Assembly: GCA_046563655.1 (NCBI GenBank) | Contig: CM102288.1 | Span: 4,464,001 to 4,528,000, forward strand | Length of the DNA: 64,000 nucleotides | Direction: 5' to 3' | Source: Yuukianura sp. NJ FZ-2021 | Taxonomy: Eukaryota | In this document: positions 29,401 through 43,600 of the stretch, piece after piece | Layout: every line of letters starts with the position of its first letter | How positions within the stretch are numbered: the stretch's first letter is position 1 | The notes under the pieces: model-generated | Databases searched by the model: none | The model's input: the letters and a program-made list of their open reading frames with translations, nothing else | What the model was told of the DNA's origin: nothing | Made by a program: the position numbers and the translations under genes

Positions 29401-31028
29401 ACAAGTAGAAGAAATGGACGGATTCATGGAATCGCTGCGAGCGTCAATTGAGATGTTCGTGAATCGGATGCGGTCAAATTCCAATAGAGGACGACATGTT
29501 TCCAATGATTCTACGGGTGAGTTTTCACTAAAAGTTGAAGAAAACAGGAGTTTTGGCAAAATTTTTTTGGATTTTTGAAATTATGATTGTCTTTTATTCC
29601 AGTGCAATCGCTGTTTCTGAATATCACGTCTCTACATTCCCAACTGTTGAACTATATCAAGGCTCAGGATGACTGGCGAGGTGAGTGAAAATTTTGAATT
29701 TCAAAAACAAAATTGAATTTTTGGAGTTTTTGGACGCCTTATTTTGATTTTTAGCACATTACGAAAGTCTACAAGAGAAGTTGATGCAGGTTCATGATGC
29801 GAGGGATGCTTTGGACGATTTACGGAAAGACTACGGGGAGAAGCAACGTCGAATTGCTGAGGAAATTGAGCGTCAGCGGCAAATTCAGCGTCAAATCAAA
29901 CTCCAGGACATGCGACAACAGAAGCATCAGTATCTTCAGCAACAGCGAGATTTGGCACTGCGTCGGATCCAAGAAGAGGAGCGTCAGATGCAACTGAGAA
30001 TGGAACAGCAACGTCTTGGAACTTTCGGAGGCTATTCGATGCGTGGACAAGGTACTGCTTCTGAAACATGTTCAACGATTTTGTTTTAACTATTTAGTTT
30101 AACGAGATACTGTTTTATGGCAGGGTACGCTGGGCCGCCTTCGGGTCAAATTCCTCCGGGAATGATGATGGGGCCAGGTCAAGGTCAAGATCCACAACAC
30201 ATGTATCAGTACATGCCACAGGCGCATTACATGGACGGACAGCAGCATCCTAACGCAATGTTGCCGCCACAGCATCATATTCCACAAGGACAAGGACCAC
30301 AACAACATATTCCAGCAGGCCAAGGCTATCCCCAACACATGGCCCAGGGCCAAGGGTATCAGCAGCAGCATATTCCTCCGGGTCAGGGATATCCGCAGCA
30401 TATTCCACCAGCACAAGGACAACAGCAGCATATTCCACCAGGTCAAGGACAACAACAGCATATTCCACAGAGTCAAGGACAACAACAGCAAATTCCTCCA
30501 GGTCAAGGACAACAACAATATATTCCACCGGGTCAAGGACAACAACAACAACAACAACATATTCCACCAGGTCAAGGGCAACAACAACATATTCCACCAG
30601 GTCAAGGATACCCTCAGCATATGCCTCCGGGTCAAGGATATCAGCAGCATCCGTATACTGGACCTGATGCTGCCTCCATGCCAAGTGGGCCACCACAAAT
30701 GATGCCTCAGATGGCACAAGGACCTCCGCAAGTTGAAGCCCCACCTCAGGTTAATGTGCCACCACAACCCCAGGTTAATGCTCCGCCGGCCCAGGTGAAT
30801 GCTGCACCATCCCAGGCTAATGCACCACCACAAGCCCAGGTTACTTCTTCACAACCCCAGGTTAATGCTCCGCCACCCCAAATTGATGCACCACCACAAG
30901 TGAATGCACCACCTACTCCAGTTGGATCCAATCAAGACGTAGCAACTGCTGCTGCTGTCACTGCTCCCGCTCCAGCTCCTCCTGTTAAAGCGGAACCAGA
31001 TATCGCTGAACTGATCAGCTTCGACTAA
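26429..31028 (+). CDS. HGS: Hepatocyte growth factor-regulated tyrosine kinase substrate (Hrs/Vps27, ESCRT-0)
   Basis: Exons 26429-26471, 26569-26653, 26729-26804, 26891-27088, 27169-27309, 27400-27414, 27555-27664, [28108-28237 or 28582-28702], 28973-29516, 29603-29680, 29755-30051, 30124-31028. VHS (VLEAVVKNCG, ILELIQTWAHAF), FYVE (APEW..RKHHCRACGQIFC..VRVCDSC), UIM (EEEDLALALAISQSE), PELARYL, PSAP, coiled coil, P/Q-rich tail, terminal clathrin box LISFD. Confidence 0.97.
30274..30650 (+). repeat. Coding minisatellite of about 30 nt units encoding HIPPGQG(Q/Y)(Q/P)Q repeats in the Hrs P/Q-rich region
   Basis: About 12 imperfect copies of catattccaccaggtcaaggacaacaacag. Confidence 0.9.
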
Positions 31029-31268: not shown

Positions 31269-33391
31269 TTAGAAACTACGATGATATGAGATGATAAAAT
31301 TTCGACTCTTGTTAACCAGCTTCACTGAGCCTGCTTTTGACCTCCGATCAACCAAGTTGTCCACGAGTCCCCAAGGCTGTAAAGTAATTAACAAAGTAAT
31401 CTAATTAATCAGTTTAGTTAAAGTTAAGTAACTTCGTAGTTTAATTACTGACCTCATTTTGATGATCTTCCCAACTCTCCAACTTTAGGGAAATACCGTG
31501 TGACGAAACCGAATTCTTTTGGAGTGTTACTTGGTATCCGCTGGACATAAAGTCCGCAAGGATGTACAGCTTGGACACATCGACTGTAGTGGACGTTTCA
31601 GCCGCCTGCGTCATGAACTTCCGGATTCGCTTGTCCTCATCTACTGACTTCACCACAGGTTCAATGTCAAGTTGTTTTAGATTCCAATTGTAGATAGTAT
31701 CGGTGTAGACGTAGCAACACTGTACTATCGTTTTAGTCTCAGTCACGACCTTGGACAGTTTCCGACTTGTTTCACACAGATCATCAATGGTTATCCAGAA
31801 CTTTTGAGTTGTTTCAAGAAGTCGAGCGATTTCGGGTTTTTCAAACTTCAGTTTTCGGAATCTCGTGGATCCAGTGAACTTGAGAAGGCCGCAGGTAAGT
31901 TCAAGAATTGACGAAGGTCGTTCTGAACCTGGTTGTTCAAGAACATCAGTCGGAGTAATCGATTTCTTGAAAGTTTTGAGACACGAAGACAGTAATCGGA
32001 GAGCTTCTTGGATAAACATGGCAATCAGTTCCACTTTTTCTGGAATTTCTAGAACACTGAATACTTCCCAGTTGCTTTCCGGTGTTGCTTGGACTAAGAT
32101 GACAACAGGCGATCGGCTGAGATCAGCATGCTGATCGGCAGTAATCGAGTGAGTTCGGCTTCTTCTTGGTGACATTGACCTTGACCTTGCAGTGGCTCTT
32201 TTTAGGATTGACTTGGGCTGAGGAGCTGTTGCCGGTGGTTTGCTTAACTTTAGTTCTGTAGTTGTCTTCTTAGCATCAATTGTCTTGGGCTTGACTTCCG
32301 GTGGACGTACTTTCGGTACCAACAAAAACGGATTCTGCTTGAATTGGAAACGACCTTGCAGGACAGTGACGAGCTGAGATCCATTTTGACGTAAATCGTC
32401 AACTCGACGTAAAAATTCAGACGATTCCAGAGCAAACTCTTGCGTCAACTCTCCAATTTCTTCGTAAGCTGCATGAGTTTCCATTAGACGTGTGTTGAGA
32501 CGGGGATTTGGATGTAGAATTTGATCTTCCTCGGAGAGTGTTGTGGGTGACATTGGGATATGATTCATTCCGTAGGTGAGTAGCCACAAGTATGCTCCGA
32601 CGATACTTTCCTTCTGGGGTACAGGAGTGTCAGCATCCTGGAATGACAGTTTGGACATGAGGGGACGAAGGCCTTCAAGTGTCTCTTCGGCATTCTTCGT
32701 TACGGTGGACAGCAAATTTAGAAACCCGGCGACATTTTTGCAGTGTTTCGTGTTCCAAATTCTACAAAAAACAATCAGAATCTCAAACAAATTCTTACCA
32801 AATGATAATTTTCAAAAACATAAAGTTACCGAATAGCTTCGATTGCAGATTCGGTTCTAGAAGGAAGCAAATTTTTGGGACCACAGCACCAACCGCAGCA
32901 AATCCTCCGTCTGCTCATAAAAAAACGTTTCATTTACGATTACAAGTTAAAATTTAAACGAAACTAAATGTAAACTGTTTGTCACCAACCTACCAACAAG
33001 ATCAAAGTCGGTTTTCACTGCTACGAGCTTCGGGCGGTGGCTTTCAGTGCGTGCCACGTTAGGCTGTGAAGGTGGCTTAGCGACATCCTCGGCTACTCCC
33101 GACACGTCACCTTGTTGCTGTGTTTGCTCCTTACTGTTACTCTCAACAGCAACATTGTCAACCAACGTCGAAATACGTTTGAGCGACGTATTCCCCGGTG
33201 CTAGTTGATCAGATGGTCTGGACGTGTCGCCCATGTCCTAAAAAGCTTAATTACTCCGCCCAATCAATTATCAATTGAACAAAATCTTCAATAAGTAAGG
33301 TCAACTGAACATCATCAGTGACTTCAGTCAGTAGTGCGCTGAGGTCAATTGATGTTTCACAAGTTCCCCTTACGTTGTGTTGCCACGACAT
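31269..33391 (-). CDS. Uncharacterised protein of about 600 aa; no family recognised
   Basis: Predicted exons 33391-33374, 33237-32990, 32910-32830, 32761-31453, 31376-31269 splice in frame with GT-AG boundaries. One exon is a 1.3 kb open frame. Contains RRRICCGWCCGP and an RS-rich stretch (ARSRSMSPRRSR). The first exon is uncertain. Confidence 0.7.
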
Positions 33392-33930: not shown

Positions 33931-35176
33931 TTAGTTGGACAGAGCATCCTTGAGAGCCATCACATACTGAAAGGAAGAGTCAACAATTAGAATATTAATT
34001 AAACCCAAAGTAATTAAGTAAACTCAGAAGAAAATATTGAAATCGCATACTTGAGCAGGAAACCAGTAGATAAAGACTCGACTGGCTTCTGTAGGGCCAA
34101 GTTGAATAGCGACGATATGATAATGCTCATATCCAGTGATCGGTTGACTCACGACGTTTCGGATGGTTCCAATTGCTACTTTCTCAGTCCTCTCCTTTGT
34201 TCCGATCCAAAGCTATAAAAAGTATAAAGAATAACTAACCAAGTTGTTTTCATTAGATTTTCATTGGTTTTTTAGTTGACCAACCTCGTCAGCTTCAAGT
34301 TTGATGGTTAGACGAAGTTTTGAACCTTTGGCATTGACCATTCCAGAAATCGGTAAATCAGGAAGCGGATCGTTACAACCGAGAATCCCTGGCATGACAT
34401 CCTCTGGAATTCCCTTCTCAATGATCTTCTGATGACGAGGGACTGAGCACCAATTTCCAGATGAAGAACTTTCGTTGACTGTGTCATCGCCTTTCAGTTC
34501 AGCTGCTGTGGGTGTTTTGTTAACGGCCAACACATCGTCTAGCTTGGTTCCAATTACCATCACTTTGGAACCTGCTGCCAATCCAAGCGATTCTAGCACC
34601 ACATCGTCTTTGGGTATCCCCTTGACCAGAACTTTTTGTAATTCGGGAGCAATTTTGGTAAAAGTTTCAATCATTCGTTTCAAATCACCTGAAACGAAAA
34701 ATGAAACGTTTAGAACTGAAAAACTACATTGATCTGAACGACTTACCGACAGTCTTTTTTAGAGAAATTTTGATTGGGATCGGTTGTTTGTTGTAAGTGA
34801 CTCTGAGCTCTACTTCGACTTCCGGTTCTGGCTCAGGGTCGGCGATGGAAGAAGAACTGGCGATTGGTTCGTCCAGAACCGACGAGGACTCAGGTTCTCT
34901 TTTGCTTTCTTCCACTTCCATAGCACTTGTCACCGAGGTGGCCGACGTTGTGGTAATGGCTGGAGCAGGAGATACCGCCATACATTCGTCCTTCCCTTCC
35001 TCCTCGTCCTGACTCATACTCTTCCGTTTTCTTCCACTCCCATTCTGGGTTTGCTGCTCCTCGTTGTCACCGATCATAGGGGTTGAAGTGTCGACAACAG
35101 AGGTGCTGCCACTTCCAACAGTGTCACCAACGCCTTCATCCTTCGTCGTAGAACTGACTTCATCCACATCCTCCAT
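33931..35176 (-). CDS. UBFD1: Ubiquitin domain-containing protein UBFD1
   Basis: Exons 35176-34747, 34688-34285, 34212-34051, 33966-33931. Acidic N-terminus, UBL (LRVTYNK..TVGDLK..LQKVLVKG..KVMVIGT), HQKIIEKGIPEDVMPG, LRLTIKLE..LWIGTKERTEK, QLGPTEASRVFIYWFPAQYV. Confidence 0.92.
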
Positions 35177-35541
35177 GGCTGACAGCTTCAACAAAACAAA
35201 AAAACAACATAAAATAAGCCTTTGGGCCATCATCGGTAGACTACCAAAAATAAGTCAGTATTTCATTACCGTTCACTCCTCCACGTTGTATAATTTTGAA
35301 GTCTCGTTGACCAATCAATCGGACAATTCCTACTTGATGTACTAGTTCCTCACTGCTCACTGCTGCTATTACGAAACTAATGTAGCTGTTGTTGGTTTGC
35401 TTCGAGTTCTCCCGTGTCAATACGTTGCTGTGGGGTCATAAAATACAGTAAAGTCAGTGACCGCAGTTACATAATGGCAATGACCTGTCAATTTCAGACT
35501 ACTCCACATGAATAAGGAAAACTACTTTACCTAGTACCTAG

Positions 35542-36075
35542 GTAAGAGGTAACCCTTCGAGTCCGATGCACTGACGGCGACCGACGACGAGCGAATTGTC
35601 GTAACCTGCAAAATTACAACAACCTTTTAACACACAGTTTCCGACCTGTAACTGCCACGGTCGCACGCCATTCGTTTTTTTAAAAGTTTTTGAAAAAAAC
35701 TTCGCGCAAAAATTTTCAAATTTTTGGGCATCCTCCGCTGAAGGGTTCTTCGCATGGCGCCGCAAGCCTGGCTTCTAATAACCAGTAATAATGTTATTAA
35801 AAATGAAAAACGAGGCGTCCGACAGAAATCCCCCATACATTGACCTCGGCCATGGGACGCTCGGCGTGTAACTGCCCTAGTCGCACGCTATGCGTGCGCA
35901 CCCATCCTCCGATCCTCACGTATAATCAAAAACCCGCTTATTTCGTCCAGAACAAAGAAACTGCGTGGGACAGTGGCAGTTACAGGTGGGGTGTAAGAGG
36001 TAACCCTCCGATGCACTGACGGCCACCGACGACGAGCGAATTGTCGTAACCTGCAAAATTACAACAACCTTTTAA
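35542..36075. mobile_element. Non-autonomous TIR element of about 360 bp (35631-35992) flanked by an 83-89 bp direct duplication
   Basis: Direct repeats 35542-35630 and 35993-36075 differ by one 6-nt indel and one substitution. Inverted repeats 35641-35668 and 35963-35990 match at 25/28. A third internal copy of the TIR motif lies at 35867-35888. Confidence 0.6.
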
Positions 36076-36499
36076 TTAAATTGATCTGATTTGATTTGGT
36101 TTCTTCTCTTCAGCAGGAGACTTTTAATTAATTATGTACACATAATTTTCAAAGACAAAAGACATAAAAAAAAAGAGTACCGTTTCAAATTTTGGCAACA
36201 CACGGGCACGGGACACGGTATCTCAAAATCTGTTTCTGTGAGACAGCATGACGCCAAGCTACTGTGCCAAACGTTATGGGTCAAGATGAGTCCAATCGAC
36301 TTGTTCTAAACTAATTCACTGAAAAATTAATCATTACAAATACTATTTTATAATTTATTAATTCATTTCAAACAGTAATTTTTCCTCTATCATTCTCATA
36401 AAACTCTCATCCGTATAAGAAACAGCCTAATCCTAATCGTATCGAATAGCTTTTGAGTTCATTCAACTTTAAACAATTATTACAATTAATTTATATAAA

Positions 36500-37567
36500 T
36501 TAACTAATTTGCACTTGGTAAACGCTGAAGCGATGGTTAATATTAGGCAAACAATGGAGCTTAGTAAGGGACACAAGGGCTCCTGACTTTTGACACTGCG
36601 CAAAGAACACTCGATTGGTCCTAGCATGTAGAAGTGTCATGGCGCACATGAGACAAGGTTCATGGCTCAAGTACACATCCAGTCCAGTACACAAGTAATC
36701 CCCGACACTCGATCGTTGTCGAATCGATTTAGCTTCCTCTCCAGGTACTTCTGGTATCCTGTACTTGTGTACTTGAGTCAAAGTTAACGCCGTACCACCC
36801 TGAAGTACTGCCACAGCATCCACTGCAACATTTACAGCATGTCGCAGTGGAAGTACTCCGGATGATCCAGTCGTACATATCAGTGTATCTGGACAGCCTT
36901 CAGTAGGGTCATGCACTAAGCAGACAGGGACTCCACCTGATTCGTTACTTTTAGCTACAACGGACTCCATATTTGTCTGAATACTTCTCAACTCCTGCGC
37001 AGTAAATCCACAGTCTTCGGCTAACAACTTGTCAAGATTCTTATCCGGTTTGAAGTTCAATGGCCACAGGGACTTTACAGCTTCAAACTGCCTACTTGAC
37101 AGTGGACACCTACCGGCAACTTCCACGATTTTGATCGATTCCTCACTTAAATCAAGTCCAGCATAATAGTCACTCAATTGTACACTCTGGTTATCATCAC
37201 TAGACACTCCAGTAACTGGAATGCATGATTTCAACAAGTCAAGTAGACTTGCGATACTTGACGTCTCTTCGACTGCTGTCAAAGCAATGGTCATCTCACC
37301 ATTCTTTGAGCAAATTCTTCTAAGATGAATCAAGGACTTCGGAAGTGGCGGAAGTCTGATCAGTAGATTGCTCGATTGACGTCGATCTGTAATCTTGGCC
37401 ACAAAGATCTTGATTAGCGGTATCTCTTGTGTTTTGTCATCAGACAAAACAGCTGATATTTTCATTGACATTTTCCGTTTCTTAGTTTCCGGTTCATCGT
37501 GACTTGGAGGGGGAAGGGAGGGGACAGTAGCAGCAGTGATTAAATGTTGATGACAGTTGATATCCAT
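36500..37567 (-). CDS. ADAT3: tRNA-specific adenosine deaminase subunit 3 (Tad3, catalytically inactive subunit), intronless
   Basis: Single open frame with first ATG at 37567 (the ORF-track start at 37630 is GTG). Motifs: HLRRI, P.S.RQFE...WPLNF, pseudo-active site RHAV (V replacing the catalytic E), [32 protein letters not shown]....NHRFSVY. Confidence 0.95.
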
Positions 37568-37599
37568 GTTCCGAACTCTCGTTAATTTATTGTTTGTTG

Positions 37600-40500
37600 T
37601 TACTTTTGTGTATGGATTCGTAGCAGGCACACTCCATTATGGAGTGTTCGTGAATATTTGGTTGGTTTTGGAGAATTCGGAACGGATTGGTCGACACTGT
37701 CGCCAGTATCACCAGCAGCATTGGAGGAGCCACTAGCTGTAACTGGCTCTGCTTCAGTCGTCGTCGTACGGTCGTCGTCACTGCTACTATCACTGCTGCT
37801 TGGGCGTTTGGGGGGAGTGTTTGGGCCAGTAAAGAGAGTCACAAAGAGTCCATTTTTTGAAACGTGGTTGAAGACACTCTGGCACATGTCGTCAACCTTC
37901 TGCATCACGTCTTCCATTTTCTTACTTTCCACTTTTGAGGTCAAGTCCAAGTGGGCCAAGCTCATGTTGTGGTTCACGGTGGCCGCTTGAAGGTGTTTAA
38001 TAGCTTGCTTTGATTTTTTAACTGAGACCTTCAATTACAATTTGAAAGACAAGACGAATTAGTTTTTGATTTAAAAAATGTCTTTCAAAAATTGAAAATG
38101 CTGTGAAAATCAGAATTGGTAAGGTGGTCATCCATGGGATTCCTCAGTACTCTGGCCAAAATTTCATCACTGACTTTATCAAATTAATTAATTCCATACA
38201 AAACTCACCGGAACAAAAGATTCAGGAGACGATCCAAGCGAAAAGTTTTTGTATTTCTCCAGGATTGAGTCCGGGGCAATCACAGTTACTAAAACAAAAC
38301 AAAAACTTAAAGTGAATTGAAGTTAAAGTAATTGAGTGAAAATTAAAGTAAAGTAAGGCGTGTGTGACTGTGTGTGCGCGTTTACCACTTTTGCTAGCCT
38401 TGGCTGTTTGATTGAAAATCGATGATGAGAGTTGACATTCTTTCAAACCAATTCCAGCTTCATCTGCTATCAGTGCATCACCAAATCGAAATCCTACTCA
38501 CCACATTATATGATTGTAATGTCTGTTTATAATAAATTACTGACAGAAGTTTAATCGATTACTCACCTCGTGCTAACTTGAGTTGAACCATTTTCATTGT
38601 GGCAATGGCATCTTCAACTGGACAGTGTCCACCCTCACTGGCCTGAATCTCCTCTCCCAAGAAACTTTCCACAAGCATTGCCAGTTTCGGTTTCTTATTT
38701 CTCTGTCCACTGACATTGAAAATGACGCTCGTGTCAATCACATATGGATGAATCATCTAAACACAAAAAAAAATGCAGTAAATCATTCGACAAGAAAAAA
38801 AAACGAAAAAATTGCACTCAATATCAAATGCGTGATACACTATGTCTCTACCTTCATAGCATGTAAATCACAATTGAGGGAATGGCCAACAAGAATTGCG
38901 TCTCGAGGTAATCTTGTTTCCAAAGCTTTCTGGACGTCTTCCAACGTTGTAGTGACATCTTTCAAACTTTTCTTGGTTATTCCAGAATACTCCGTCAAGT
39001 AGTTGGTAATTCTGTTCTTTGGTTTTACAAAAGACTCGTAGACGACCTACAAACATCAACCAACAATCAATACAAAATGTTGAAAACATGCGATGCATAT
39101 TTTGTACTTTTTAATTTTCAAAAAAATCAACATTTTTGAAAAATCGTCCCATTTACCTCATGATTTTCATTTACGACGGCGATTCTTGTCAGTTCTGAGG
39201 TGGTTCCGGTCGTAATGCACATTTCACAATCGATAGCAAAGATAGGTGAACTGTTTGAAACCTCCTTGTACTTTCGTTTGCTCATCTTGTAATCAGAGTA
39301 CTTGTGCTCCATTTCAAAATCAAATGGAAGTGGATAATTCTCCATAACCATTTGTTGGAGGCTGAGTAGAAGGTACGTCCGAGGAAACATGTCTGTCAGA
39401 GGAAGGTCAAGGACAGGAGCAGCGCAACCCAGAATATTCATGTCATCTTCCTCTTCTGCTTCTGTATGAGCAAAATTAATTGGAAACAGAGCTCGAAACA
39501 CTTTGAAAACTTCTTTGGAATGGAGTGCTGCCTCTATTGTGCCGTACTCTAAAAATAGAAACCAAAATCTTACTCAAATTCCGAAATCCGAATGAACAGT
39601 TCATGAAAAATGGTGAACAATCTTACTTTTCAGAATATTTTGTTTCTGAACTTGAGTTAGAGCAACACATGCCATTTCCTGGGCGAAGTCTGTGCCATAT
39701 TGGAAAGGTGACATGACCTCAACTCGGTCTTGAAAAATGGACGTTACTTTTGGCAGGAAATGCTCGTAGGTAAAGAAGTCGTGACAAGACAAGCCTTCCA
39801 GTACGAGCACAACGATTTGGGTCAAATTTGTATACTTTTGTAAGTAGCACCACCTAGTTTAAAAATTATACAATGAATTTACAAGAAACAGAACGAGTAA
39901 CAGCCGACGCGTCGTCATATGTCAACTGACCTTTCAGGAGGATATGAAAGTGTGTTTCCGCCCAAGGCGTAGAGAAGAAGTTGCTGGACATCCGAGACCA
40001 TAATGGGAATTCTGTTTTCCTGAGCCATGGACAATGATGCGTTCAGTCCTACACCTTGAAGAGTCAACTTTGGAATTTCCTAAAATATAAAAAGCTAATC
40101 ATAACACCAATTCCGTATTGGTTTGTAACTCAACTACTAAATTATTTAATTAACTCACTGTTAAGATCTTTTTGCGTGCTCGCAATCGAGCCTTTAGGTC
40201 TTTAAATTCTTCTGGACTAAGTTGCTTCCGACCACCATTAGTAGCTTTCGATGCGGCTGTTTCAGCTTTGGCAAGTTCTCGGACCCTCTTCAGTTCAGGC
40301 GGAAAGTCTAATACCTCGCCAGGCTAAGAAGCAAATAAGACAAACAAAACATTACCATTTCTGAAAACGAAAAACGTAGAAACCTCCACTTACCCGTTTA
40401 ATTGCATCGTTCGACTTGGCCAGTTCGAACTCCGTGATCAATTTCTTGGCCTTCTTCTCCATCCGCTTCAGCTTCTTACTCTTGGCCAATGGAACGGTGG

Positions 40501-40657
40501 TCCAACCTGCCTCAGGAGGTGTCGCAACCGAATCAGGAAACTTCCCAGGTTTGGTGTCAATCACTCCTATCCCTGCAAGTGGATCTCCGTCACTCTTGCC
40601 AACACCATCGGTATCGGTGGCAACGTTGCCATTGACAATGAGATTGTCCCCTTCCAT
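37600..40657 (-). CDS. REXO5: RNA exonuclease 5 / NEF-sp-like DEDDh 3'-5' exonuclease
   Basis: About 10 coding exons (40657-40394, 40323-40159, 40079-39931, 39853-39627, 39548-39157, 39046-38852, 38756-38567, then approximately 38494-38385, 38290-38209, 38029-37600). Motifs: [27 protein letters not shown], Exo[25 protein letters not shown], Exo[15 protein letters not shown], Exo[11 protein letters not shown]. Confidence 0.88.
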
Positions 40658-43600
40658 TTAGCTTGACATCAAAACTTTAACAAAAATACACAATAATTTT
40701 AGTCGTCCATACTCATAATACCCAAATACCCTATACCGTAGTACTTGATGACCGTTTTTAAAGAAAGCCCAAAAGACTTACCAACCAGGTTAGTTTGTAA
40801 AAGTACTTGTTTGTTACAAACCTAATGAGACTCAAACAAGGCAGCTTTCGCTGCACTTATGGCGAGATGCATACAAGATAGCTCCAGCCTCTTCCTTGAT
40901 TGCTTTGATGCCTAATTAACTGCGAACTAAATTAATAAATTAAAGTTAGAGTAAAAATTCTCCGACGAATTCGGCAGGAAGAACACAAATCATGAAAGCA
41001 TGGTGTCGCCGTCGTCGTGTTTTTTTTTTCATGTTTTTATATTTTACTTTTTGCATTTTAGTTTTCGCGCTTTTGTGATTTTTGAGAAAGTGAGAACTTT
41101 ATGAACTTTTTAAAACAATAAACGACGACAAAAAAATTCAAAGCGAAAACGTAATGGACGGAAAAATCCTGACAAAAATTTTTTGGCAACGAAAACACTT
41201 CCGGATTCCAAAACAATATTGAAATCAAAGTTTTTTCAGATATTGACATTTTTTCTGCCTAAAAATTTTCAGAAGTTCTGACTGCTTATAACTTCGTTTT
41301 TCATCACACTTTTTAAAAAAAATCTCGGTTTAGTTTGTAATTTCCATCTAAAAATACAGTTTTGCCTGTTTCAGATTCGCCTGTTGCATTCAAATCCCTA
41401 AAAGAAAAATTCTCTAAAAAACAGCTTCCGTTTTCGCAGAACTGTTTTCAACGGAAGCTGTTTCTGCTAGAATTTTGGCACCTTTCCCTGCTTTTCGTTT
41501 TTGCACATGCCTCCTTTCCCTGCTGTTAGTTTTGCACTCATTTCCTTTTGCACAGGATCAATACCCCACTCAGGCTTTTCCTGGAGTCAGTTGGGATTTG
41601 CAAAGGCTTCAACTCAACCTCCCTTCGTGGAAATTCGGGGTTTTCGGACTTTTCGGAGCCAGTGGAGCAACGTATGGACTCAATTCGGAATTGGCAAAAA
41701 GGCTCTGCTGCGTCCAGAGCCAAGCTCTCGTCTCCAGGCACAACTTTCCCTTATCGACTTTTCCCGTGACCCATTTACATTGGACGAACTTTATACCGAA
41801 CCTAGTTAACTTTTCAACCACAATTAAACTCCAGAGGTCACCAAACTCAAGGTGAAACAGTGGCAGAGGTCAAAGGGTAAGTTTTAGAAGCTTTGGCATT
41901 TTTGACAATAATTTTGAGTCCTTGGAGCAAAATACGATTCTTCTCAAGTGACAAATGTCACTGATTTTCTGAAATACGAAAATTTGCTCAAAATTTCCAA
42001 TTTTTTTTAAATTGTAGAGTGTAAGAAATGAAAATTACGCAACACTTTCGGTTAATCTCCTTTGTCTCATCAAACAGTCAATGCAAACGGAAGCTACTAC
42101 ACTTTTTTTTGTTAAAGTTTTTGCATTAGCCATCTGCGGATGTAATGGTATCCCCCTTCCATCCGTCTTGCAAAAATTATTGCGAAATTTTTGCAATCTC
42201 CGAATTAAAAATGCAAACTTAACCCCTTCCACTCCCGACTGGACACCAAATGCTCTTTCCGTTTCTTCAAAAGCTGTATAGAAAAAATAGAACAAAAAGT
42301 ACAGTTGTTGTACTTTATTTTTGCAAGAATAAGCAAGGCGTTATGGTTTGCAAATTTTCTTTTGCATAATTATAATGTTGCAAATTATAACACGCATTTT
42401 TTTCTCTACATTTTTTTAAGAAAAAAAATTAACGGCCTTTGAGAAGGGAAGGTCACGGGGGTCATGAATTTGTTGGGAAAACTGTTATGAGTTCTTATTT
42501 TTTTTTTGTCAATTTGCAAAAAGTGATCTATGAGTTGTAAAACAATTTGCGAATTTTTTGCTAACTTACTGTTTGGCTTTTGGTTGAAAGAGAGACGACA
42601 ATGGGTGAATGGCGCCGAAACAAAACAAAAATGTCTCGACTAGAACTCATCATAAAAACGCAGTTTTCGCAATTCTTCGTTTGCACTTTTCTTAAGTTCT
42701 GTTTATACTAATAAAATTCATGAATGATGACTCAGAAGGTTCGTCATGTTTGTGTCCACTCATTCAATTAAAGGAAAAACTAAAATTTTGAAATTAGAGA
42801 AAATAGATCTAGTTCACGATCAGAATCTTCAAATTCACTGCGTTCTTGAAGTTTTCAAGTTCTGCGAGTTTTCCAATAAAGTAAAGTCTAAAACATCACT
42901 TTTTTTTAAAGTGAACAACGAAAATAAAGAAAGGGTTTAAATGTTTTGAATCTCTAATTTTGTTTTGCCAAAACTTTGACAAATAAGACATTGGAGCACT
43001 ACTGCCACTGTGTGTTCCGAAGTGTAAGATGAGTAGATGATCGTAAAAATTAAACAATAGAAGCGTAAGGGCGATGCGTCATGTGACCTAGGTTGACCTC
43101 TCTTATCAATTGGCCACTTTTTAATGACATTCAAACCTCAAGTCGTAAAGTTAATCCTAACTTTTGTTCTCATGTTTCAACTTTGACATTTCAACAGTTC
43201 GTCTTCATCTTCTCAAAAATCACGAACTTCAAAAGCGTAACAGCGTTTTAACACTGACAAAAAATCAAAAAGTGTTGTCAAATTTCACGGTTAGTTCGAA
43301 AGTCAAAATTTAAAAATTTCTGTATTTAAAACATGACCTCTAGGTCATTCTCATTTCCATTCTCTTCCTTTGTGAACTTAGAGTTTCCTGCGTCCTTTTA
43401 ACTTCAAAATTTCTGATTAACGTACACAGACAAGTGGAAAATCGAATATTCAAATTCAAAACGATTTTTCATAAATTAATTTTATACTGTAAAAATTTCA
43501 AATTTAAAGTCGGGAGAGAATTTTGATCTTACAACTGTGATAATCTTGAAAAAATCAGTTAAAAACTTTAGTAGTTTAAAATGCTCAAGTTTCAAAGAAA

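What the first reader, a model, noticed from the sequence alone, without database searches (positions are those of the whole stretch)
36500..40790. REXO5 and intronless ADAT3 are 32 nt apart on the same strand: candidate dicistronic, shared-promoter or recoded unit
Seen: the REXO5-like stop (TAA, 37600-37602) is followed after only 32 nt by the first ADAT3 ATG (37567), which leaves no room for a normal 3'UTR plus promoter. An AATAAA (37586-37591) lies in the gap, so cleavage would fall at about the ADAT3 ATG. The ADAT3 frame is open back to a TAA at about 37637 and overlaps the last ~12 REXO5 codons in the -1 frame. REXO5 ends ...CAA AAG TAA, where a -1 slip (AAG to AAA) would read directly into ADAT3. 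ADAT3 is the only intronless gene in this intron-dense window. REXO5 also has a probable non-coding first exon (donor GTAAGT at 40781). Known: human ADAT3 has a single coding exon and shares its 5' exon with SCAMP4. Inference: ADAT3 here is expressed by dicistronic re-initiation, polyA read-through, splicing from the shared leader to a weak AG near 37577, or a frameshifted fusion. Any of these would couple two RNA-processing enzymes.
Basis: partly seen in the sequence, partly recalled or inferred. Interest (0 to 1): 0.75.

Follow-up and report, generated by a model that had tools for sequence, protein, structure and literature searches.

The report
Conserved abutting REXO5–ADAT3 gene pair
Two unrelated RNA-processing genes (an RNA exonuclease and a tRNA-editing subunit) sit head-to-tail only 32 bases apart in what is probably a springtail genome, and related genomes keep the same arrangement, so the two are almost certainly expressed as a linked unit, though how is not yet shown.

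Summary
A 10-coding-exon REXO5-like gene ends at TAA 37602-37600. AATAAA lies at 37591-37586. An intronless 355-codon ADAT3-like ORF starts at ATG 37567, 32 nt after the stop.

The new result is conservation. In all five related metagenome loci where upstream DNA could be read, the REXO5 C-terminus (NGVCF[IV]R[IV]) lies 37-75 nt upstream of ADAT3 on the same strand. An Allacma fusca (springtail) gene model fuses the two genes. No flanking gene is shared.

The comparison rejects recoding:
- The frame offset takes all three values.
- There is no slippery heptamer.
- The junction RNA is less structured than shuffled sequence.

No credible 3' splice site lies near the ADAT3 ATG, so shared-leader splicing and SL trans-splicing are unsupported.

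Four of six spacers carry AATAAA or ATTAAA, and all six lack AUG.

REXO5 in this clade also carries a 55-75-residue low-complexity insertion just upstream of ADAT3. Other arthropods have 4-6 residues there.

Best guess (about 0.4): overlapping transcription units, with an ADAT3 start site inside REXO5's 3' coding region. A read-through dicistronic mRNA comes second. No RNA data could be obtained. I rate it a new member of a known kind, of moderate interest.

The parts
40776..40781 (-). GTAAGT donor of a probable ~105-nt 5'UTR intron of REXO5. The acceptor is ...gttaaag, about 21 nt before the ATG.
   Evidence: Read from the sequence. There is no RNA support.
37600..40657 (-). REXO5-like gene with 10 coding exons: 40657-40394, 40323-40159, 40079-39931, 39853-39627, 39548-39157, 39046-38852, 38756-38567, 38493-38386, 38288-38209, 38028-37600. 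It encodes 732 codons plus TAA. Introns are 70-180 nt.
   Evidence: The GT-AG model stays in frame. Exon 6 hits Pfam RNase_T at 28.8 bits against a cutoff of 24. Exon 6 is 65-71% identical to named arthropod Rexo5. tblastn matches L002, L003 and L005.
37639..37821 (-). A 61-residue low-complexity insertion ([11 protein letters not shown]...KYSRTLH) between the LFVTLFTGP strand and the NGVC strand of REXO5. It lies 72-254 nt upstream of the ADAT3 ATG.
   Evidence: Alignment A4 shows 55-75 residues here in the window and L002-L005. Limulus, a damselfly and P0193 have 4-6.
37603..37638 (-). Conserved REXO5 C-terminus [12 protein letters not shown], probably the last beta-strand of the alkaline-phosphatase-like domain.
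   Evidence: The motif NGVCF[IV]R[IV] is found in L001-L005 only, 5 of 80 loci. Other arthropods have NG[VA]CF. The domain description comes from passages of PMC12129344.
37600..37602 (-). REXO5 stop codon TAA.
37568..37599 (-). The 32-nt spacer. It has no AUG. It contains AATAAA at 37591-37586 and TTCGG at 37575-37571.
   Evidence: A canonical poly(A) hexamer occurs in 4 of 6 spacers. TTC(C)GG occurs in 4 of 6, but that motif was picked after looking at the data.
36500..37567 (-). Intronless ADAT3-like ORF of 355 codons plus TAA at 36502-36500. It has HAV at 36841-36833, where Val replaces the catalytic Glu, and PCLMC at 36658-36644.
36354..36359 (-). AATAAA 141 nt after the ADAT3 stop. This is the probable ADAT3 poly(A) signal.
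   Evidence: L001, L003 and L005 each have a canonical hexamer 32-127 nt after their ADAT3 stops.

Best explanation
Shown:
- REXO5 and ADAT3 are two separate, intact protein genes that abut tail-to-head.
- The arrangement is old. It occurs in several deep branches of a clade whose only named members are springtails. It survives while the neighbouring genes change.

Inferred:
- The two genes are overlapping transcription units.
- REXO5 mRNA is cleaved and polyadenylated at the hexamer in the spacer, so its 3' end falls at or just inside the start of ADAT3.
- ADAT3 mRNA starts from its own start site inside the 3' coding region of REXO5. The most likely place is the clade-specific low-complexity insertion at 37821-37639. 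The transcript ignores the cap-proximal poly(A) signal and ends at AATAAA 36359-36354.
- The pair cannot be separated, because ADAT3's promoter is REXO5 coding DNA.
- Some read-through dicistronic RNA probably also exists, as at the Drosophila lemming locus.

Confidence is about 0.9 that this is a real, conserved, non-fused pair. It is about 0.4 for the internal-start-site mechanism, which is the figure given as this explanation's confidence.
For: Adjacency:
- REXO5 lies immediately upstream on the same strand in the window and in L001-L005. Spacers are 32, 61, 37, 51, 44 and 75 nt.
- The Allacma fusca model P0113 joins REXO5 (residues 1 to ~672) to ADAT3 (689-985, 45% identical to the window's).
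- No window ORF outside the pair matches any of the 80 loci. L001 has a convergent gene downstream, and L003 has an ArfGap gene.
- In the ADAT3 tree, the window, four of the five adjacent loci (L004 is not in the tree), Allacma and the Orchesella group fall in one clade of 21 of the 29 rows, with support 95/92.

Separate 3' ends:
- AATAAA or ATTAAA occurs in 4 of 6 spacers. That was reached by 2.3% of 5000 shuffles, and by 0 of 5000 sets of random same-length pieces of the window.
- ADAT3 has its own hexamer 32-141 nt after its stop in the 4 loci with enough downstream DNA.

Translation:
- The REXO5 CDS holds 43 ATG triplets, so leaky scanning is excluded. Reinitiation after 732 codons is expected to be poor (general knowledge).
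- The spacers are AUG-free in 6 of 6, and the junction is unstructured, with z = +1.87 in the window. Both fit a short scanned leader.

Room for a promoter:
- A fast-evolving insertion of 55-75 residues in REXO5 sits just upstream of ADAT3, only in this clade.

Precedent:
- At Drosophila lmg, RACE found an ORF1 mRNA end inside the 92-nt spacer and an ORF2 5' end 107 nt upstream of ORF2. Both were seen alongside dicistronic RNA (PMC3372440, passages).
Against: - No RNA evidence of any kind was obtained.
- No DNA motif is shared by the 300 nt upstream of the six ATGs. No 7-mer or 8-mer occurs in at least 5 of 6.
- TTC(C)GG was chosen after looking at the data, and in the window it is not visibly tied to gene starts.
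- No TATA or initiator pattern was recognised by eye.
- The low-complexity insertion may be unrelated to ADAT3.
- Conserved adjacency is predicted equally by a dicistronic mRNA.
- The poly(A) hexamer enrichment is modest against composition-matched shuffles (P = 0.023), because the spacers are A-rich.
- Allacma adjacency rests on a gene model, not on DNA I could read.
- The closest relative, P0001 (65% identity), and the Orchesella group could not be examined.
Confidence: 0.4

Rival explanations
1. True dicistronic mRNA. Transcription from the REXO5 promoter reads through the spacer poly(A) signal. ADAT3 is translated from the second cistron by termination-reinitiation or internal entry.
For: - Adjacency is conserved with a very short spacer of 32-75 nt, which is AUG-free in 6 of 6 loci.
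- The RNA around the ADAT3 AUG is unstructured.
- No promoter motif was detected.
- Dicistronic loci are documented in Drosophila, for example lmg with a 92-nt spacer (PMC3372440, passages).
Against: - The upstream ORF is 732 codons with 43 ATG triplets.
- In S2 cells the second lmg cistron was not detectably translated. The authors also note that in-frame AUGs in ORF1 attenuate ORF2 translation at stoned and snapin.
- A canonical poly(A) hexamer sits in 4 of 6 spacers. That would cut most transcripts before ADAT3.
- ADAT3 is expected to be essential (general knowledge of Tad3/ADAT3), so a very inefficient route is unlikely to be the only one.
Confidence: 0.25
2. Shared promoter with alternative splicing. 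A REXO5 5' exon is spliced to an acceptor just before, or just inside, ADAT3. This skips the REXO5 CDS, in the manner of human SCAMP4/ADAT3.
For: - Human ADAT3 is listed as sharing a promoter with SCAMP4 (PMC2568002, table row).
- REXO5 probably has a non-coding first exon with a consensus donor.
- The Allacma gene model bridges the two ORFs with a predicted intron.
Against: - The best AG within 150 nt upstream of the ATG scores -3.0, 0.7, 6.0, -1.5, -3.4 and 2.4 in the six loci. Real REXO5 acceptors score 9.0-15.7.
- L003 has no AG in the last 45 nt before the ATG.
- The best acceptors in the first 260 nt of ADAT3 score at most 6.5.
- Caveat: the scoring matrix was trained on only 9 sites from the window.
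Confidence: 0.1
3. Operon resolved by spliced-leader trans-splicing. One pre-mRNA is cut at the spacer poly(A) site, and the downstream ADAT3 RNA is capped by a trans-spliced leader.
For: - A poly(A) hexamer lies a few bases before the downstream cistron in 4 of 6 loci. A very short spacer of this kind resembles tunicate and nematode operons (recalled).
- Adjacency is conserved.
Against: - No acceptor of normal strength lies before the ATG in any of the six loci.
- The other same-strand gap examined in the window is about 1.3 kb, so short spacing is not general here.
- Rfam found no SL RNA or any other RNA family in the window.
- The library held no paper tying spliced leaders or polycistrons to springtails. 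Searches gave search listings that were irrelevant by title, and one search checked one reference-list hit.
- By my recollection, not seen here, SL trans-splicing is not known in hexapods.
Confidence: 0.07
4. A fusion protein made by recoding (-1 frameshift at ...CAA AAG TAA, or stop read-through), or by a short bridging intron as in the Allacma gene model.
For: - In the window, the ADAT3 frame is open across the REXO5 stop in the -1 frame.
- In L003, the TAG is in frame with ADAT3 with no further stop.
- The Allacma model P0113 is a 986-residue fusion.
Against: - Frame offsets are 2, 1, 1, 0, 2, 0. The ADAT3 frame is closed before the REXO5 stop in L001, L002, L004 and L005.
- There is no X XXY YYZ heptamer.
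- The junction RNA folds worse than 197 of 200 shuffles.
- Candidate donors between NG and the ATG score at most 5.9, against 5.9-11.0 for real donors. There is no conserved in-frame donor-acceptor pair.
- Five of the best 150 ADAT3 representatives exceed 550 residues. Those five and two shorter ones were scanned, and none carries an exonuclease domain.
- The fused model drops the conserved last strand of REXO5.
Confidence: 0.03

Closest known systems
Drosophila dicistronic loci, e.g. lemming (lmgA/lmgB) (PMC3372440, passages read)
   Same: Two unrelated ORFs lie on one strand with a spacer under 100 nt. An upstream-cistron mRNA 3' end falls inside the spacer, and a downstream-cistron 5' end falls inside the upstream ORF, alongside dicistronic RNA. 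The topology is kept across related species.
   Different: The lmg upstream ORF is 85 codons and the locus is intronless. Here the upstream gene has 10 coding exons and 732 codons. lmg conservation is shown only within Drosophilidae, whereas this pair spans deep branches of a springtail-containing clade. No RNA data exist here.
Human ADAT3/SCAMP4 promoter-sharing pair (PMC2568002, one table row read)
   Same: ADAT3, with a single coding exon, depends on the transcription unit of an unrelated neighbour.
   Different: In human, the two genes share a start site or 5' exon, and ADAT3 does not follow its partner's stop codon. The partner gene is different. Splicing into ADAT3 is not supported here.
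Spliced-leader operons of nematodes and tunicates (recalled, no paper read here)
   Same: Same-strand cistrons, a very short spacer, and the upstream gene's poly(A) signal just before the downstream cistron.
   Different: There is no trans-splice acceptor before ADAT3. Only one such pair was seen in the stretch examined. The taxon is not known to trans-splice.
Arthropod Rexo5 / yeast Rex1 family (PMC12129344, passages read)
   Same: A DEDDh exonuclease inserted in a discontinuous alkaline-phosphatase-like domain. There are no RRMs, as in the fly. The C-terminal NG[VA]CF strand is conserved.
   Different: The loop before the last strand is expanded from 4-6 residues to 55-75 low-complexity residues in this clade. 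The window's protein also has about 60 extra N-terminal residues relative to the Allacma model.

Membership tests
REXO5 / Rex1-type DEDDh exonuclease | RNase_T (DEDDh) catalytic domain with motifs DxE, D and Hx4D | tested here: met
   Exon 6 hits Pfam PF00929 at 28.8 bits against a cutoff of 24. The model contains AIDCEM, HSLNCDL and GHCPVEDA. The motif definitions are recalled.
REXO5 / Rex1-type DEDDh exonuclease | Orthology to named arthropod Rexo5, as opposed to REXO1 or REXO4 | tested here: met
   The exon-6 profile search gave best named hits 'Rexo5' or 'RNA exonuclease 5' from insects, spiders and horseshoe crabs at 62-71% identity; a few rows carry other names such as 'RNA exonuclease 1'. 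The C-terminal NG[VA]CF strand is shared. No tree of the REXO family was built.
REXO5 / Rex1-type DEDDh exonuclease | Exonuclease inserted in a discontinuous alkaline-phosphatase-like fold | not tested
   The spliced protein could not be handed to the structure tools, because it is a joined sequence. This feature is inferred only from alignment to arthropod Rexo5 and from PMC12129344.
ADAT3 / Tad3 (non-catalytic subunit of tRNA A34 deaminase) | CDA-type deaminase domain with zinc ligands H...PCxxC | tested here: inconclusive
   Both Pfam scores fall just below their cutoffs: PF00383 at 24.7 bits against 25, and PF14437 at 25.3 against 27. H and PCLMC are present and invariant in alignment A1.
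ADAT3 / Tad3 (non-catalytic subunit of tRNA A34 deaminase) | Catalytic Glu of the HAE motif replaced, typically by Val | tested here: met
   The window has RHAVNV. None of the 14 aligned sequences has Glu at this position. That this is the ADAT3 hallmark is recalled.
ADAT3 / Tad3 (non-catalytic subunit of tRNA A34 deaminase) | Full-length similarity to proteins named ADAT3 | tested here: met
   Hits named 'tRNA-specific adenosine deaminase 3' (P0005, P0006, P0009) and 'inactive tRNA-specific adenosine deaminase-like protein 3' (P0022) cover 88-93% of the query.
Dicistronic gene (one mature mRNA carrying both ORFs) | A single polyadenylated RNA spanning both ORFs | not testable with these tools
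   No RNA run was listed and no genome or transcriptome is held.
Spliced-leader operon | A trans-splice acceptor (pyrimidine tract plus AG) shortly before the downstream cistron | tested here: not met
   The best AG within 150 nt upstream scores -3.0 to 6.0 in the six loci, against 9.0-15.7 for real acceptors.
Spliced-leader operon | SL RNA genes, and a common leader on mRNAs of the organism | not testable with these tools
   Rfam found nothing in the window. No genome or RNA data are available.
Programmed -1 ribosomal frameshift | An X XXY YYZ slippery heptamer, a downstream stimulatory structure, and a conserved frame relation | tested here: not met
   The site is A CAA AAG, followed by the stop. 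The fold z-score is +1.87. Frame offsets are 2, 1, 1, 0, 2, 0 across the six loci.

The most novel reading that the evidence does not exclude
Springtails have kept the essential tRNA-editing subunit ADAT3 without any intergenic promoter since early in their radiation. Its promoter lies inside the coding sequence of the RNA exonuclease REXO5. It sits in a clade-specific disordered insertion of 55-75 residues in the last loop of REXO5's alkaline-phosphatase-like domain. On this reading, that protein segment exists, or is tolerated, because its DNA serves as the neighbour's promoter. This would be a long-lived case of coding sequence that doubles as a promoter and locks two RNA-processing genes together.
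Probability: 0.2. Interest if true: 0.6.

Novelty: new member of a known kind. Interest (0 to 1): 0.4.

Why it matters
If the pair is expressed as inferred, it is a natural, long-conserved example in hexapods of two unrelated genes with overlapping transcription units. An essential gene would have no intergenic promoter and would sit downstream of a poly(A) signal.

Such loci are useful for three questions:
- How cap-proximal poly(A) sites are ignored.
- How promoters can live inside coding DNA.
- Why some gene pairs resist rearrangement.

There is also a practical point for annotation. Gene predictors merge the two genes, as in the Allacma fusca model P0113, so springtail REXO5 and ADAT3 entries may be wrong.

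The functional link between a 3' trimming exonuclease and a tRNA deaminase subunit is suggestive but untested.

Tried and rejected
RNA and genome evidence:
- No whole genome is held for the window.

Taxonomy:
- The Atlas look-up of the UMPS exon gave only fungal-dominated clusters and was of no use for taxonomy.

Earlier findings of this scan:
- Nothing was found on this genome or this pair.

RNA families and tRNAs:
- Rfam found no family in the window.
- There are no tRNA genes in 35000-41500.

Motifs in the upstream DNA:
- No 7-mer or 8-mer is present in at least 5 of 6 of the 300-nt upstream stretches. The four 6-mers that are shared are A-rich.
- TTC(C)GG occurs in 4 of 6 spacers, against 0 of 5000 shuffles and 3 of 5000 random sets. 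It was chosen after looking at the data. Its copies in the window are not visibly tied to gene starts, so I give it no weight.

DNA alignment of the six junctions:
- Only the NGVCF codons align, and their synonymous positions vary. The spacers do not align.

Fused forms:
- Of the best 150 of 2334 ADAT3 relatives, five exceed 550 residues. Those five, plus two others, carry deaminase domains only.

Splice-site scoring:
- Scoring for a bridging intron, a shared-leader acceptor or a trans-splice acceptor found none of normal strength.

More distant ADAT3 loci:
- L006-L010 (31-34% identity) have no REXO5 in the 8-480 nt available upstream.
- L006 and L007 instead have a short 5' coding exon and an intron.

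Literature:
- ADAT3 + REXO5 returned 0 papers.
- Rexo5 + dicistronic and ADAT3 + bicistronic returned 3 papers each. By listing, none is about a gene pair; of these six, only PMC12129344 was opened, for Rexo5 domains.
- Collembola or springtail with spliced leader, polycistronic or trans-splicing returned nothing relevant.


Full report
**Anatomy**

All features are on the minus strand. A REXO5-like gene can be modelled with ten coding exons joined by GT-AG introns of 70-180 nt. It runs from ATG 40657 to TAA 37602-37600 and encodes 732 codons. The stop is followed by a 32-nt spacer (37599-37568) that contains AATAAA at 37591-37586. After the spacer comes an uninterrupted 355-codon ORF from ATG 37567 to TAA 36502-36500. 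That includes the open -1 frame back to 37636 and the GTAAGT at 40781-40776.

**Identity of the two genes**

- REXO5. Exon 6 hits Pfam RNase_T at 28.8 bits against a cutoff of 24. A profile of exon 6 finds named arthropod Rexo5 / RNA exonuclease 5 proteins at 62-71% identity.
- The REXO5 protein has no RRM. This matches fly Rexo5, as described in PMC12129344 (passages).
- ADAT3. The downstream ORF falls just under the Pfam deaminase cutoffs, at 24.7 bits against 25. It matches proteins named tRNA-specific adenosine deaminase 3 over about 90% of its length.
- The ADAT3 ORF carries HAV in place of the catalytic HAE, and it carries PCLMC.
- The first ATG is the real start. The N-terminus aligns from residue 1 with the closest full-length relative, P0002, and a basic KKxK motif upstream of the second Met is conserved.
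- The REXO5 stop is real. The C-terminal strand NG[VA]CF, followed by a short tail (6-11 residues in the aligned sequences), ends Rexo5 in the relatives and in other arthropods.

**Organism**

No genome is held for this window. The evidence points to a springtail, but that is an inference.

- The best named match of a UMP-synthase exon is Folsomia candida, at 44%.
- The best named ADAT3 match is Orchesella dallaii, at 35%.
- A 29-row ADAT3 tree was built from rows I chose among the top hits, plus the Allacma part of P0113. In it, the window falls in a clade of 21 rows with support 95/92. The only named members of that clade are the springtails Allacma fusca and Orchesella.

**Conservation of the arrangement**

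A scan of metagenome contigs with the ADAT3 alignment returned 80 loci.

- tblastn with the REXO5 model hit L002, L003 and L005, upstream of ADAT3 on the same strand.
- A search for the C-terminal peptide NGVCF[IV]R[IV] found it in L001-L005 and in no other locus, 5 of 80.
- L001-L005 are the five loci closest to the window (37-48% ADAT3 identity).
- The spacers are 32 nt in the window, then 61, 37, 51, 44 and 75 nt. L001 was corrected by one base after reading.
- L006-L010 (31-34% identity) show no REXO5 in the 8-480 nt available upstream. L006 and L007 have a 5' coding exon and an intron instead.
- A 986-residue Allacma fusca gene model (P0113) joins REXO5 to ADAT3. The genes therefore abut there too. 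I could not read that DNA, and the bridging intron is probably a predictor's device.
- No other ORF of the window matches any of the 80 loci. Rows from 36400-40700 were dropped before that count. L001 has a convergent gene after ADAT3, and L003 has an ArfGap gene.
- In the window, the next same-strand gap, to a UBFD1-like gene, is about 1.3 kb.

The pair is kept although no flanking gene is shared.

**What the comparison excludes**

Recoding:
- The ATG-to-stop frame offset is 2, 1, 1, 0, 2, 0.
- The ADAT3 frame is closed before the REXO5 stop in L001, L002, L004 and L005. Only in L003 does it open directly behind that stop, which is in frame with ADAT3 there.
- The site A CAA AAG is not a slippery heptamer.
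- The junction RNA folds worse than shuffles, with z = +1.87 in the window and -0.13 to +1.50 in the relatives.

Splicing:
- A matrix built from the nine REXO5 acceptors scores those real sites at 9.0-15.7.
- The best AG within 150 nt upstream of each ATG scores -3.0 to 6.0.
- Acceptors inside the first 260 nt of ADAT3 score at most 6.5.
- Donors between the NG codons and the ATG score at most 5.9, against 5.9-11.0 for real donors.
- The matrix is small and comes from one species, so this evidence is moderate, not decisive.

Fused proteins:
- Five of the best 150 ADAT3 representatives exceed 550 residues. Those five and two shorter ones were scanned, and none has an exonuclease domain.

**What the comparison suggests**

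- AATAAA or ATTAAA lies in 4 of 6 spacers, at 24, 9, 5 and 8 nt before the ATG. This count was reached by 2.3% of shuffles and by none of 5000 random sets.
- Each ADAT3 with enough downstream DNA has its own hexamer 32-141 nt after its stop.
- REXO5 mRNA therefore probably ends at, or just inside, the start of ADAT3.
- The spacers are AUG-free in 6 of 6.
- The REXO5 CDS has 43 ATG triplets, so leaky scanning is impossible.
- REXO5 in this clade carries a non-conserved, low-complexity insertion of 55-75 residues between its last two conserved strands. In the window it is 37821-37639, which is 72-254 nt upstream of the ADAT3 ATG.
- Limulus, a damselfly and an unnamed arthropod have 4-6 residues at that position. 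The C-terminal strings of the listed insect proteins look equally short.

**Mechanism**

I commit to overlapping transcription units, at about 0.4. On this reading, an ADAT3 start site lies inside REXO5's 3' coding region, REXO5 is polyadenylated in the spacer, and ADAT3 is polyadenylated at 36359-36354.

- This explains the linkage, because the promoter cannot be moved without breaking REXO5.
- It explains the two poly(A) signals.
- It explains the AUG-free, unstructured leader.
- It spares an expected-essential gene from depending on reinitiation after 732 codons.
- The Drosophila lemming locus shows that such RNA ends coexist with dicistronic RNA (PMC3372440, passages).

The rivals, with my estimates:
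- Read-through dicistronic mRNA, about 0.25.
- Shared-leader splicing, about 0.1.
- SL operon, about 0.07.
- Fusion, about 0.03.

None of the steps after "the genes abut and stay together" is shown.

**Novelty and limits**

- No paper in the library holds both gene names.
- Dicistronic or overlapping tandem pairs are known in insects, so this is a new member of a known kind.
- Its unusual features are depth of conservation and an upstream-gene insertion that may be related.
- No RNA run was listed.
- The closest relative, P0001, and the Orchesella group could not be examined.
- Supplements of the cited papers were not opened.

Noticed in passing
window 35542-36075: Two direct repeats lie about 445-451 nt apart in the ADAT3-UBFD1 intergenic region. 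One is 69 nt at 99% identity (35562-35630 and 36007-36075). The other is an adjoining 19 nt at 95%. Imperfect 40-nt inverted repeats lie between them. This looks like a small repeat-bounded element or a recent local duplication.
   Followed up: partly
L003 5833-5889: In this relative only, the REXO5 TAG is in the same frame as ADAT3 with no other stop in the 51-nt spacer. Stop read-through would therefore give a fusion there. It is not conserved in the other loci.
   Followed up: yes
L004 306-1601: The ADAT3 frame has a long N-terminal extension interrupted by a single in-frame TAA at 672-674. This could be a sequencing error, a very short intron or a decaying extension. It was not resolved.
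   Followed up: partly
window 40657-40460: The window's REXO5 has about 60 N-terminal residues ([10 protein letters not shown]...) before the conserved KKxKK...LAKSND start seen in the Allacma model and in other arthropods. A later start at the Met in KRMEKKAKK is possible.
   Followed up: no
window 30090-31028: The last large exon of an Hrs/HGS-like gene (VHS and Hrs_helical hits upstream) encodes about 300 residues of Q/P/G-rich near-repeats such as HIPPGQGQQQ.
   Followed up: no
L006 and L007, first 500 nt: These more distant ADAT3 genes have a short 5' coding exon (MGNTAAGKPP...VDIDE), a GTAAAT donor and an intron of about 50-60 nt before the main ORF. An intronless ADAT3 is therefore not universal.
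   Followed up: partly
window 37500-37612: The RNA around the ADAT3 start is notably unstructured. 197 of 200 dinucleotide shuffles fold at least as well.
   Followed up: yes
window 31441-32811: A 456-codon open frame on the minus strand has no Pfam hit. It lies between the UBFD1-like and Hrs-like genes. It was not examined further.
   Followed up: no
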